Position numbers: made by a program
Part shown: positions 18,001 to 21,000 of the stretch, piece by piece
Numbering within the stretch: the stretch's first letter is position 1
Layout of the letters: every line of letters starts with the position of its first letter
NCBI RefSeq assembly: GCF_044324785.1
Contig: NZ_CP172127.1
From: Escherichia coli
GTDB taxonomy: Bacteria; Pseudomonadota; Gammaproteobacteria; Enterobacterales; Enterobacteriaceae
DNA: 64,000 nt
Direction: 5' to 3' (one strand)

Positions 18001-21000
18001 ACCATTCTGGCTAACAAGGGATGGAGCAATGAGGACTGGGCCATCATGGCAGCGGCAGAACTCAGGCCGATGACTACTGCCGGGCATATGGGGATGACGC
18101 CAGACGCGATTTACGCTGTGCCCGATAACGTAATAGCCGACATTATGGCAGACCGTATTACCCGGATTCGTGCCGGGAGTGAAAAGGCACTGGCAGCCCT
18201 TGGAGATCTCCCTCCAGAACGCCTGAAACGGATGAAAGAAGCATTCGACGCTGAGGCTGAGCAGACCATCACGCGCATGATTCGTAATGCACGCGCTGAA
18301 GCAGCCCAGAAATTGCTGGGAATTACGCACGGTGAGATGACCAATGCTGTGACCACCGCTACGGGTATTGATACATATGCCCGTGATGATGCTGGCGAGT
18401 TAATGAAGAGCTTCATGCTCTTCAAAACAACCCCATTTGCTGGATTTCGGCAACTTGTTAACAGAACACGGGATTTGGACACCGTTCCGGCCATTAAATT
18501 TCTGGCCTCATATATCGGGGGAACAACTCTTGCTGGTATGTTTGCGATCCAGATGAACAGTTTGTTAAATGGTAATGATCCGCTGGATATGACAAAACCA
18601 ACCACATGGGTTCAGGCTTTACTGAAAGGTGGTTCGTTCGGTATCTACGGTGATTTTATTTTCCAGGACCATACGCAATATGGCTCCAGAATCGGTGCCA
18701 CTATGGGTGGCCCTGTGTTGAGCTTTGCAGAGCAGTTAACAAAATTACTGATTACTAACCCACAGAAGGCTCTACAGGGTGAAGAAACATCATTCGGTGC
18801 CGATGCACTGAAAACAGCCCGCATGATCACCCCATTCGCAAACCTGTGGTATGCGAAAGCGATAACCAATCACCTGATATTGCAACAACTTCAGGAGATG
18901 GCAAACCCTGGTTACAATGATCGAGTAAGGGACCGCGCGCAACGGGAGTTCGACATAACGAGTTGGTGGGAACCGGGTGCTATTGCGCCACGTAGAGCAC
19001 CGGATTTTGGAAAGGCGGTGGGGAACTGATGACGAGAGATAAAATTGAATATATTGCTTCTCTTAAATATGAAGCTGAGAAATGGAGAAGGATTGGCGGG
19101 TGGGGAACATTAATATCACTCTCTGCTTTACTTATAGACTCCTGGTTCAGACATATTGATGCAGCATCATTACTTTTTGAATCAGCAGTACTTGGTGGAT
19201 TCATTTGCTGTTGGGGTGGTAATTATGATCGGGCGTCCAAACATAAGAGAGAACTTGACGCGATATGTTTTGCTTTATTCGGTAAGGATTACGAAAGTTC
19301 TGACCTTGATATAATTGAATTCAACAAAACGGAACTATCGTGACATGTCACAGGCCGCTTTCGCGGCCTTGTTTTTAACGAATGCCACCGCCGCCCGGGC
19401 GGGAATTCGCAGATAAAAAAGCACGCTGCACGGTTTTATTAATACTTATACCATTAGGATTGATCCTTCAATGGACAATCCTTCCATCGTGTGGCCAGCC
19501 ATTCATATTCTTTGTCTTTTCTTCAGTATCGGCTTTGCATCTTCTACACCCTGAAAGATGTCGTTTTATGGTGTATCTGATGATTTATTCCCTAACAATA
19601 GATATTCGAAAAATTAATCAGTTAAAACAATTATTTGGATAATTTCAGGTAAAACTATCTTAATCTTCTGGTGGATCTCAATGCGTAGTGACGGTATCGG
19701 GATTAAGGGCGTGGATATTCGCGATATATGCCGCTACACCCCTCAACAGTAATAGATATGAGCTTTTCACGCTCTCCTTTCACTGCTGAGAACGGCAACA
19801 ACGTGCCACAGGAACGCGCTGTAATCGATTCTGACGCACTTAATTGCGTTGGGTAATGGTTTTTGCCAGCCTGTGGGGGTAACTCTGTTTTATGAGGCTT
19901 TGGCTATAGTGCAAAAATACACTTTGTCTTGCCTCTCAATTTGATGAGACTGGAACGACAACAGGACAGACCACCAGCAACAGTTACCGTATTCAGCCGT
20001 TCTGTGGCACCAGTGGAACTATCAACCCCTGCTTTCAGCAATGTGTTTGCGGGTTATTTTGGGGCGTTTGCGGGTTATTTGGGATGTTTTGCGGGTTATG
20101 TGATGCTTGAATAATGAACAGTGTATTTTGCAACATATTGATACTAAAGAACAAAAAATAGTTAGCATACTAAGATAACCCGGTAACCCGCATAACCCGC
20201 ACTGTTTTGTATATATATACGAAAAATTGCATTCAGGAGGGGGGGAGCGAAATCCCTACAATCCATTGCTTATGGGACCGCCCGCCTCGTCAAATTTTTA
20301 CACCCGCGAAATAAAAAAATACTTCACGCTGGTGGGCATGATGCTGATATGGGAGGCTTCCATAACGCCACCATTCGGAACTATGCAAATCTGCATAGAA
20401 AAGGGGATGCCTGATACAATACCCTCGCCCGATAAAATCACACCGATAAACTCATCTGCCACGAGTAGAAAGAGCGAACGAACCCGATACGCAGTAATGC
20501 TTGTCGGGTACAGCTTTTTAAGGCGGCTGTAGATATCAGGCCATCCGTGATCATCCACCAGCGAGATAGCCGATAACGATGACGCATAACCCTCAAGCGA
20601 GGGATAAATGTGTATAGAAATGTGTATAGAATTGATTTTAGAACTCGCAGGATTCGCGCTATTACTGGCCTTGTGTGATGTTGTATTGTTCCCTTCGCCC
20701 GCTCCAATTTATCTTCACCTCATCAACCTGTCATTTTTGTTGTATCTGATTTTCTATATTATCTTAATTCAATCGCTTCAGACTTTTCGCAATCGCCGAA
20801 ATACTTCCCCATTTTTTTGTAAATAAAAGCGTTTACGCAATGCAATCCATTTGTAACAACCCAGGTAAAATACCTTATTTTCAAGTTGTTAAATAAGTGG
20901 TTATCTACGCTTTTAACAAACGATTGATGGAATCTTTTATGAAAGGGAAATCTACATTAACTCTTCTGCTCGCTGGTATATTTTCATGCGGCACATGCCA

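What the first reader, a model, noticed from the sequence alone, without database searches (positions are those of the whole stretch)
20048..20201. Second iteron cluster with the same motif 10.5 kb away, next to attR
Three direct TGCGGGTTAT copies at exactly 21-bp spacing (two helical turns), a ~70-bp AT-rich region, then three inverted copies (ATAACCCGG variant, TAACCCGCA x2). The motif and convergent layout mirror cluster 1. In the excised circle this cluster would lie ~1.5 kb upstream of int. Two separated cis sites bound by the same initiator is the ori/crr arrangement described for P4; alternatively one site could be a partition or incompatibility locus.
Basis: partly seen in the sequence, partly recalled or inferred. 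Interest (0 to 1): 0.65.

Follow-up and report, generated by a model that had tools for sequence, protein, structure and literature searches.

The report
Displaced second half of satellite origin
The repeat cluster is real and is most likely a second binding pad for the replication helicase of a 19-kb phage-satellite island in E. coli: one half of a two-part replication origin that here sits 10.6 kb from the other half, beside the island's DNA-packaging (cos) site.

Summary
Six TGCGGGTTAT-type repeats at 20048-20201 (three direct at 21-bp spacing, a 75-bp 72% A+T spacer, three contiguous inverted copies) use the same motif as cluster 1 (9473-9597). All eight exact copies in the 64-kb window lie in these two clusters.

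The element is a PICI-type phage satellite at tRNA-Gly (attL 1544-1562, attR 20689-20707). Its replicase is a DUF927 primase-helicase related to the SaPI Rep and Cch helicases, not to P4 alpha.

Among 72 relatives, 39 have the two clusters contiguous just after the primase gene. Twelve have them split by 0.6-10.6 kb, in four different iteron-specificity groups. In 12 of 13 islands with a distal cluster, its iteron matches the island's own cluster 1. Iteron type tracks only the last ~110 residues of the primase. Iteron bases are conserved while spacers drift.

Cluster 2 is therefore very probably a cognate Rep-binding half-origin, arranged like P4 ori/crr but not a member of that family.

Caveats: intact or decaying orphan copies occur in islands with unrelated primases, and about 21 relatives show only cluster 1 in the sequence held, so necessity is unproven. 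A phiP27-type cos site lies about 35 bp downstream.

The parts
20048..20099 (+). Cluster 2 left arm: three direct iterons TGCGGGTTAT at 20048, 20069 and 20090, 21-bp phasing
   Evidence: The same three-copy 21-22-bp phased arm is seen in L003, L006, L091, L092, L007 and L022.
20100..20174 (.). A+T-rich spacer of cluster 2 (75 bp, 72% A+T), candidate melting or bending region
   Evidence: The spacer sequence drifts among relatives while the iterons do not.
20175..20201 (-). Cluster 2 right arm: three contiguous inverted iterons at 9-bp period (ATAACCCGG variant, then TAACCCGCA twice)
   Evidence: The geometry is conserved in all iteron groups.
20202..20229 (+). Conserved tail of cluster 2: CTGTTTTG-(TA)5-CGAAAAATTG; the (TA)5 tract is at 20210-20219
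   Evidence: Conserved after the right arm in the TGCGGGTTA, TGGGACAAG and GTTGGTTCA groups and in the contiguous-type L004. Not called as a sigma-70 promoter. Its function is inferred only.
9473..9597 (.). Cluster 1: the primase-adjacent half-origin. Two contiguous direct iterons, a 43-bp A+T-rich spacer, and four inverted iterons at 11/21/21 bp.
   Evidence: This position and layout match the PICI ori described in PMC6092414.
7323..9449 (+). DUF927 primase-helicase (708 aa), the presumed initiator. The C-terminal ~108 residues (nt 9123-9446) are the presumed iteron-binding domain.
   Evidence: Pfam DUF927. PDB 8TCH SaPIbov1 Rep, E = 2e-14. The C-terminal-domain model best matches 8TCH and 5DGK. 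The C-terminal domain is the only island protein segment that tracks iteron type.
20236..20318 (+). phiP27-type cos site (core CGCCCGCCTC at 20279-20288), immediately downstream of cluster 2
   Evidence: 84.5% identity to the annotated cos-site region of phage phiP27 and to termini of Burkholderia phage genomes.
20689..20707 (+). attR core (19-nt copy of the tRNA-Gly 3' end); its partner attL is at 1544-1562
   Evidence: Alignments to islands in other genomes end here.
1687..2940 (+). Integrase of the island; about 0.63 kb downstream of cluster 2 in the excised circle

Best explanation
Cluster 2 is a cluster of six binding sites for the C-terminal domain of the island's own DUF927 primase-helicase, a self-loading Rep of the SaPI Rep / Cch kind. 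It is the second half of a two-part replication origin.

The complete origin, as seen contiguous in most relatives, has a near-mirror layout: [2-3 contiguous iterons] - A+T-rich - [3-5 phased iterons] | [2-3 phased iterons] - A+T-rich - [3 contiguous iterons] - (TA)n. In this island the array has been cut between the two phased arms. About 10.5 kb lies between the halves (ssb, a ProQ/FinO-like gene and a 7.3-kb uncharacterised operon), so half 2 now sits next to the cos site and attR.

What is shown: the repeats, their geometry, their co-variation with cluster 1 and with the primase C-terminal domain, and the stronger conservation of iterons than of spacers.

What is inferred: Rep binds both clusters. 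Each six-iteron unit nucleates one hexamer at its A+T-rich spacer. After excision the two units cooperate, either by Rep-mediated looping as proposed for P4 ori/crr or by firing as two origins on the 19-kb circle. Cluster 1 is probably the core origin, because it is always present after the primase gene, and cluster 2 an auxiliary or enhancing element.
For: 1. The motif is non-random and confined to the two clusters.

2. Layouts in relatives. I scored 72 islands with a DUF927 primase. 39 have the clusters contiguous within 260-400 bp after the primase stop codon, including E. coli L004 and O157:H7. 12 have a same-iteron distal cluster 0.6-10.6 kb downstream, always in the same orientation: window, L003, L006, L092, L007, L022, L026, L029, L031, L038, L040, L063.

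3. The split pieces add up to the contiguous array. For example, L031 has '>>><<<' plus '<>><<<' where L027 has '>>><<<<>><<<'.

4. The distal cluster carries the island's own iteron in 12 of 13 islands, across four iteron groups. Shuffling gives P = 1.5e-5, or 0.017 when collapsed to one island per group.

5. E. albertii L007 has the same (TA)5 tract and cos flank as the window. Its cluster 2 iterons are replaced by CTTGTCCCA, which is its own cluster 1 iteron, with the geometry kept.

6. Window versus L007 primase: residues 151-600 are 95% identical and the C-terminal domain 35%. Same-iteron islands keep the C-terminal domain at 87-93% while int, AlpA, DUF4222 and the primase N-terminus fall to 26-64%.

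7. Cluster 2 iteron columns are more conserved than spacer columns: 0.90 versus 0.71 (P = 3e-4) and 0.85 versus 0.61 in a second group. Among five near-identical islands, 0 of 10 polymorphic columns fall in the iterons.

8. The primase is related to SaPIbov1 Rep. The C-terminal winged-helix domain of SaPI Rep binds iterons that flank an A+T-rich region downstream of rep (PMC9371898). E. coli PICI origins of this layout support replication (PMC6092414).
Against: 1. Orphans exist. L091 has an EcCICFT073-type primase with CTGTCTACC iterons, yet carries a fully intact TGCGGGTTAT cluster 2 plus cos. L005 has a P4-type primase with TGTTCACC iterons and a decaying copy. L013 has a heterologous distal cluster. 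So the cluster can persist without a cognate Rep and travels with a right-end module.

2. About 21 relatives show only cluster 1 in the sequence held, 14 of them with a full 10 kb downstream. Cluster 2 may therefore be dispensable.

3. The only functional test in the literature I could read, EcCICFT073 pri-ori, used a contiguous origin of a different primase family.

4. Co-variation could partly reflect common descent of the two halves rather than continuing selection.

5. No binding or replication data exist for this element.
Confidence: 0.6

Rival explanations
1. Cluster 2 is a functionless passenger. It is the leftover half of an ancestral contiguous origin that now travels as part of a mobile right-end module (cluster 2 - (TA)5 - cos) exchanged between satellites by recombination. 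Cluster 1 alone is the working origin.
For: Orphan copies occur in islands with unrelated primases: L091 intact, L005 decayed with an (ATAACCCG)x9 expansion, L013 one iteron short. L091's copy is 96% identical to that of the matched island L003, which indicates recent module exchange. Cluster-1-only relatives exist. In E. coli, cluster 2-like sequences are found in more genomes (299) than cluster 1-like ones (249). A remnant of a cluster 2 tail lies after cluster 1 in L003.
Against: The split arrangement recurs in four iteron groups with the six iterons, their spacing and their orientation intact. Iterons are conserved while spacers diverge by 20-30%. In L007 the iterons were exchanged to the cognate type inside an otherwise conserved flank. 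The two older orphans show decay, as expected if integrity depends on a cognate Rep.
Confidence: 0.2
2. Cluster 2 is a copy-number control or incompatibility locus. The extra iterons titrate Rep or pair with cluster 1 (handcuffing) to limit initiation, as incA does for the P1 plasmid. This comparison rests on my own knowledge of iteron plasmids.
For: It has the same iterons as the origin, a location away from the rep gene, and a number of sites equal to that of cluster 1.
Against: Cluster 2 has the full origin-like anatomy: convergent arms around an A+T-rich spacer, plus a (TA)5 tract. In 39 relatives it is fused to cluster 1 as one array, which is not how control loci are organised. Satellites replicate in a burst after induction, when negative control has no obvious use.
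Confidence: 0.1
3. Cluster 2 belongs to the packaging signal. It would be a cosB-like array bound by the helper's small terminase, or by a satellite redirecting protein, next to the cos cleavage site.
For: The cos core lies 78 bp after the cluster. Repeats around a bendable A+T-rich stretch resemble lambda cosB (own knowledge). The PICI cosB is reported to differ from the helper's (PMC6092414).
Against: The motif is identical to the primase-adjacent iterons and tracks the primase C-terminal domain, not the cos type. L007 has the same cos but different iterons. L087 has the cos without any such cluster. L022 and the 39 contiguous-type islands have the cluster without an adjacent cos.
Confidence: 0.05
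4. Cluster 2 is an operator for a rightward promoter in the (TA)5 region. Rep or another regulator binds there to control transcription of whatever lies downstream: hyp-ssb in contiguous-type islands, the cos region here.
For: In the contiguous-type L004 and in L022, the (TA)n tail is followed within about 10-25 bp by a ribosome-binding site and a start codon.
Against: The scan called no sigma-70-like promoter there. In the window no convincing gene follows, and there is no Rfam match at 20000-20700. This reading does not explain the A+T-rich spacer or the six-site geometry shared with cluster 1.
Confidence: 0.05

Closest known systems
Replication origin of SaPIs and other phage-inducible chromosomal islands (PICIs), including E. 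coli EcCICFT073 (PMC6092414; PMC9371898)
   Same: The element is the same kind: int, int-alpA RNA, alpA-like gene, Icd-like gene, DUF4222, primase, SSB, PerC/ProQ-like genes, all transcribed one way. Two sets of inverted iterons flank an A+T-rich region. The initiator is a self-loading helicase related to SaPIbov1 Rep, and its C-terminal domain tracks the iteron. Cluster 1 sits exactly where the PICI ori is described, immediately 3' of the primase/rep gene.
   Different: The described PICI ori is a single site next to rep. Here a second complete iteron/A+T/iteron unit lies 10.6 kb away beside cos and attR. I found no paper in the searchable library that describes such a distal unit or the two-unit mirror layout. 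EcCICFT073 itself has a different primase family and iteron (CTGTCTACC), and its origin is contiguous.
Satellite phage P4 ori / crr
   Same: Two cis sites kilobases apart share one iteron: P4 TGTTCACC at 4291-4590 and at about 9310-9413. One site lies directly downstream of the primase-helicase gene and close to attP/int. The P4 crr unit also has two contiguous direct copies, a spacer, then inverted copies. From my own knowledge, P4 alpha binds both sites through its C-terminal domain and both are required in cis.
   Different: The initiators are not detectably homologous (BLASTP E = 0.12; Pfam finds DUF927 only). The iterons differ. In P4 the primase-adjacent site is the auxiliary crr and the distal site is the start site; which unit fires here is unknown. 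P4 crr is a 120-bp tandem duplication, unlike either cluster here. The window island lacks sid, delta and psu.
Iteron control loci of plasmids (for example P1 oriR / incA); own knowledge, not tested here
   Same: A second group of the same iterons lies outside the minimal origin, on the other side of or away from the rep gene.
   Different: Control loci lack their own A+T-rich unwinding spacer between convergent arms, and they act negatively in steadily maintained plasmids. Cluster 2 has full origin anatomy and is fused to cluster 1 in most relatives.

Membership tests
PICI/SaPI-type replication origin | Lies immediately 3' of the rep (pri-rep) gene | tested here: not met
   Cluster 2 starts 10,599 bp after the primase stop codon. 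Cluster 1 meets this feature (24 bp after the stop). In 39 relatives the cluster 2 unit also meets it, being contiguous with cluster 1.
PICI/SaPI-type replication origin | Two sets of iterons in opposite orientation flanking an A+T-rich region | tested here: met
   Three direct and three inverted iterons around a 75-bp, 72% A+T spacer.
PICI/SaPI-type replication origin | The iterons are those recognised by the element's own Rep C-terminal domain | tested here: met
   Indirect evidence only. Iteron type co-varies with the last ~110 residues of the primase and with no other island protein. The distal cluster matches the island's own cluster 1 in 12 of 13 islands. The C-terminal-domain model is closest to SaPIbov1 Rep and Cch. 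Binding itself was not tested.
PICI/SaPI-type replication origin | Supports Rep-dependent replication | not testable with these tools
   Needs plasmid-maintenance or induction experiments. The literature has this only for the contiguous EcCICFT073 origin.
P4 ori/crr system | Two separated cis sites carrying the same iteron | tested here: met
   Clusters at 9473-9597 and 20048-20201 share the same 10-mer.
P4 ori/crr system | The initiator is a P4 alpha-family primase-helicase | tested here: not met
   BLASTP of window primase against P4 alpha gives E = 0.12. Pfam finds DUF927 only. The nearest solved relatives are SaPIbov1 Rep and Cch.
P4 ori/crr system | Type I iteron TGTTCACC | tested here: not met
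   No TGTTCACC cluster in the island. Such clusters do occur after P4-type primases in L005 and L087.
P4 ori/crr system | Both sites required in cis; initiator-mediated looping between them | not testable with these tools
   Requires deletion analysis and EM or 3C.
cos packaging signal (cosB-like terminase-binding array) | Repeats travel with, and co-vary with, the cos cleavage site | tested here: not met
   Same cos with different iterons in L007. Cos without the cluster in L087. Cluster without an adjacent cos in L004, L022 and the other contiguous-type islands.
Plasmid iteron control (incompatibility) locus | Extra iterons act negatively on initiation and lack origin anatomy | tested here: inconclusive
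   The anatomy is origin-like, which argues against this family, but the sign of the effect cannot be tested here.

The most novel reading that the evidence does not exclude
The origin of these DUF927 satellites is built from two physically separable six-iteron loading pads, one per Rep hexamer. The gap between the pads is the island's cargo-insertion hotspot. The distal pad fused to cos forms a portable 'replicate-and-package' cis cassette. Islands that carry it as an orphan, such as L091 and L005, could then be replicated in trans by a co-resident DUF927 satellite, making them satellites of a satellite.
Probability: 0.12. Interest if true: 0.75.

Novelty: new variant of a known kind. Interest (0 to 1): 0.5.

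Why it matters
PICI and SaPI origins are described as one iteron/A+T/iteron site next to rep. This work points to three additions.

- In a large enterobacterial lineage the origin is a mirror-image pair of such units.
- The pair is repeatedly found pulled apart by up to 10 kb of accessory genes.
- The two units still co-evolve with the initiator's C-terminal domain.

If the distal unit is functional, several things follow.

- It gives a natural system for asking how self-loading MCM-like helicases assemble: one hexamer per six-site pad, cooperation at a distance, and looping as in P4 ori/crr.
- It marks the stretch between the pads as a defined cargo or defence-gene hotspot; here that stretch holds a 7.3-kb operon with no known families.
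- It gives a simple sequence rule, iteron type read from the primase C-terminus, for predicting which satellites can cross-replicate or are incompatible.

The orphan copies also record frequent swapping of replication and packaging modules among satellites.

Tried and rejected
- Rfam search of the whole island at permissive E-values found only the tRNA and the int-alpA RNA, and nothing at 19900-20700. An RNA-gene reading of cluster 2 was dropped.

- The sigma-70 promoter and terminator scan found no promoter in the (TA)5 region.

- Tandem-island relic idea: there are only two copies of the att core in 1400-21500, so there is no internal att site.

- I tried to decide whether cluster-1-only relatives are complete islands that truly lack cluster 2, by searching for att direct repeats and ORF maps. 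The repeats were short or fell inside ORFs, so this stays unresolved.

- Literature searches on cf-PICI origins, P4 crr and DUF927 gave no description of a distal cluster. One search call failed on a short term. PMC9942202 was not informative on crr, so the P4 mechanism statements rest on the GenBank annotation and on my own knowledge.

- PADLOC, NCBIfam and Pfam on the three large cargo ORFs gave nothing.

- By eye I considered a lambda- or P2-type cos. I rejected both in favour of the phiP27-type match from BLAST.
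Full report
**1. The observation**

The sequence at 20048-20201 is as described.
- Three TGCGGGTTAT copies lie on the + strand at 20048, 20069 and 20090, 21 bp apart.
- A 75-bp spacer follows, with 72% A+T against 51% for the island.
- Three contiguous inverted copies follow at 20175-20201.

With up to one mismatch the motif occurs 18 times in the 64-kb window, against 4.3 +/- 2.2 expected, and no shuffle reached 18. Eleven of these hits, including all eight exact ones, fall in this cluster and in cluster 1 at 9473-9597. Cluster 1 has the same convergent design in mirror image: two contiguous direct copies, a 43-bp 70% A+T spacer, then four inverted copies at 11/21/21 bp.

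**2. Context**

The window is E. coli.
- A tRNA-Gly(CCC) gene lies at 1488-1561.
- Its last 19 nt are repeated at 20689-20707.
- Alignments to islands in other genomes end exactly there (H14 and H15).

The element therefore spans 1544-20707, 19.1 kb. RefSeq annotation of an identical island and PHROG hits give this gene order:
- integrase
- an int-alpA RNA (Rfam)
- an AlpA-like regulator
- Ant and BRO anti-repressor-like genes
- YlcI
- an Icd-like gene
- DUF4222
- a 708-aa DUF927 primase-helicase
- cluster 1
- SSB
- a ProQ/FinO-like gene
- three large unknown ORFs
- cluster 2
- attR

This is the gene set and one-way organisation of the Gram-negative phage-inducible chromosomal islands (PICIs) described in PMC6092414. 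In the excised circle cluster 2 would lie about 0.63 kb upstream of the int start, not 1.5 kb.

**3. The initiator**

- The primase matches only Pfam DUF927.
- It is not detectably related to P4 alpha (E = 0.12).
- It matches the solved SaPIbov1 Rep (8TCH, E = 2e-14) and SCCmec Cch (5DGK).
- An AlphaFold model of its last 150 residues (pLDDT 80) finds the same two proteins as best fold matches. The scores are modest: probabilities 1.00 and 0.99, TM about 0.5.

SaPI Reps are self-loading helicases. Their C-terminal winged-helix domain binds 6-12 iterons arranged around an A+T-rich centre just downstream of rep (PMC9371898).

**4. Relatives**

A scan of species-representative genomes with a primase alignment returned 80 loci. 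I added annotated E. coli loci.

The iteron after the primase gene differs by lineage. At least 12 types occur, for example TGCGGGTTA, AGTGGGTTA, TGGGACAAG, TGGGATAA, GTTGGTTCA, GTTGTCTCA, GTCGGTTCA and AGTGTGTCA.

Three layouts occur:
- **Contiguous, 39 loci.** A 260-400-bp array has cluster 1 and cluster 2 side by side, as '>> A+T <<<< >>> A+T <<<'. This group includes E. coli L004 and O157:H7 strains.
- **Split, 12 loci.** The cluster 2 unit lies 0.6 to 10.6 kb downstream, always in the same orientation. These are window, L003, L006, L092, L007, L022, L026, L029, L031, L038, L040 and L063.
- **Cluster 1 only, about 21 loci**, within the sequence held.

The split pieces sum to the contiguous pattern. 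L031, for example, has '>>><<<' plus '<>><<<'. The array has therefore been cut between its two phased arms. In the E. coli split islands the distal unit sits 130-490 bp from attR.

**5. Co-variation**

- *Matching.* In 12 of 13 DUF927 islands with a distal cluster, that cluster uses the island's own iteron. This holds across four iteron groups. Shuffling gives P = 1.5e-5, or 0.017 when collapsed to one island per group.
- *The L007 case.* The clearest example is E. albertii L007. The sequence to the right of cluster 2, the (TA)5 tract and cos, is almost identical to the window. Yet all six iterons are CTTGTCCCA-type, like L007's own cluster 1, with spacing and orientation kept.
- *Primase comparison.* The window and L007 primases are 95% identical over residues 151-600 but 35% over the last 108 residues.
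- *Other island proteins.* Islands that share the TGCGGGTTAT iteron (L003, L006, L004) keep that C-terminal domain at 87-93%. Their integrase, AlpA, DUF4222 and primase N-terminus are only 26-64% identical. SSB does not track the iteron either.
- *All loci.* Across 70 loci, primase pairs with more than 80% identity in the helicase part drop to 30-40% in the C-terminal domain when their iterons differ.

The primase C-terminal domain is thus the only candidate specificity determinant, and cluster 2 follows it.

**6. Constraint**

- In alignments of distal clusters, iteron columns are more conserved than the columns between them: 0.90 versus 0.71 (P = 3e-4) and 0.85 versus 0.61 (P < 1e-4). Cluster 1 gives similar values, 0.96 versus 0.60.
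- Among five near-identical islands, none of 10 polymorphic columns in 20040-20235 falls in the 57 iteron positions. About 2.9 would be expected, P about 0.03.

**7. Complications**

- *L091.* This island has an EcCICFT073-type primase and CTGTCTACC iterons after it. It nevertheless carries a perfectly intact TGCGGGTTAT cluster 2 plus cos at its right end. That copy is 96% identical to the one in the matched island L003.
- *L005.* This island has a P4-type primase with TGTTCACC iterons. Its copy has lost one left iteron, and its right arm has expanded into (ATAACCCG)x9.
- *L013.* This island has its own contiguous origin plus a heterologous five-iteron distal cluster.
- *What these show.* The right-end module is exchanged between satellites, and the cluster can persist without its Rep. 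The older-looking orphans are decaying, which fits dependence on a cognate Rep, but this is only anecdotal.
- *Necessity.* The cluster-1-only relatives mean that necessity is unproven. I could not establish their borders.
- *Functional data.* The only functional data I could read concern the contiguous origin of EcCICFT073, which has another primase family.

**8. The neighbourhood of cluster 2**

The region 20236-20318 is 84.5% identical to the annotated cos region of phage phiP27. The phiP27 cos core CGCCCGCCCC aligns to CGCCCGCCTC at 20279-20288. The same region also matches the termini of Burkholderia phage genomes. A related stretch lies at the right end of PICIs in hundreds of E. coli genomes.

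The cos is not tied to the iterons:
- L007 has the same cos with other iterons.
- L087 has the cos without any cluster.
- L004 and L022 have the cluster without an adjacent cos.

This argues against a cosB-like reading.

**9. Interpretation**

Cluster 2 is very probably (about 0.85) a set of binding sites for the island's own primase-helicase. It is homologous to the second half of the two-unit origin seen contiguous in most relatives.

That it still contributes to replication here is my best explanation, at about 0.6. It might act as a second loading pad or as a crr-like enhancer reached by looping. The main rival, at about 0.2, is a non-functional passenger of the mobile cluster 2-cos module. 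Negative copy control, a packaging site and an operator are less likely.

The resemblance to P4 ori/crr is one of arrangement, not of family. The initiators are unrelated in sequence and the iterons differ.

**10. Novelty**

The rep-adjacent PICI origin is known. I found no description, in the library I could search, of the mirror-image two-unit structure, its repeated splitting by cargo, or the co-evolving distal unit next to cos. I rate it a new variant of a known kind, of moderate interest and directly testable.

Noticed in passing
window 20236-20318 (core 20279-20288): A phiP27-type cos site lies about 35 bp after cluster 2. It is 84.5% identical to the annotated cos region of phage phiP27 and matches the termini of Burkholderia phage genomes. 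A related stretch sits at the right end of PICIs in hundreds of E. coli genomes. This implies helper phages with P27-family TerS and an HNH endonuclease.
   Followed up: yes
window 11682-19343: Four co-oriented ORFs of 843, 686, 925 and 104 aa lie between the two iteron clusters. The PADLOC and NCBIfam searches covering them gave no hit, and Pfam, run on the 843- and 925-aa ORFs only, found nothing. This is uncharacterised cargo in what looks like the satellite's accessory-gene hotspot, and a candidate anti-phage system.
   Followed up: partly
L091 13960-14300 (E. coli ECONIH2); L005 18000-18190; L013 18246-18360: Orphan copies of the distal cluster occur in islands whose primase uses other iterons. 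L091's copy is intact. L005's has a nine-fold (ATAACCCG) expansion and a lost left iteron. L013's is one iteron short. This is evidence for swapping of replication and packaging modules between satellites.
   Followed up: partly
window 20450-20519: A 70-nt stretch between cos and attR is about 84% identical to part of the rlfB/rapB gene of phages P1 and P7, and to 80-98-kb E. coli plasmids. It overlaps a possible hairpin followed by a T-run. Its meaning is unknown.
   Followed up: no
window 2985-3052: Rfam int-alpA RNA (46.9 bits, above the gathering score) lies between int and the following gene. It is a marker of this satellite class.
   Followed up: no
window 3939-4004: Two tandem 33-bp direct repeats (TTACCATCACCCTTAGGGT..., 88% identical) lie just upstream of the alpA-like gene. 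They may be a regulator-binding site.
   Followed up: no
L006 3163-18446 (E. coli NRZ96606): A related satellite carries a full capsid, portal and terminase module. It is inserted inside the large-terminase gene of a prophage (helper-embedded PICI). It has the same split cluster 1 / cluster 2 arrangement.
   Followed up: partly
window 20564-20707 versus L093, L095, L096: Near-identical islands in other E. coli strains diverge completely from the window from about 20564 onward. The att-proximal arm, and presumably the integrase module, has been exchanged, while cluster 2 and cos are kept.
   Followed up: no
L005 8300-8560: Roughly 95-bp tandem repeats directly follow the TGTTCACC iteron cluster of a P4-type primase. 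This recalls the 120-bp duplication of P4 crr.
   Followed up: no
window 23140-41000: The chromosomal flank to the right of the island is the ETT2 type III secretion cluster (eivF, sctC and others), according to the annotation of an identical genome.
   Followed up: no
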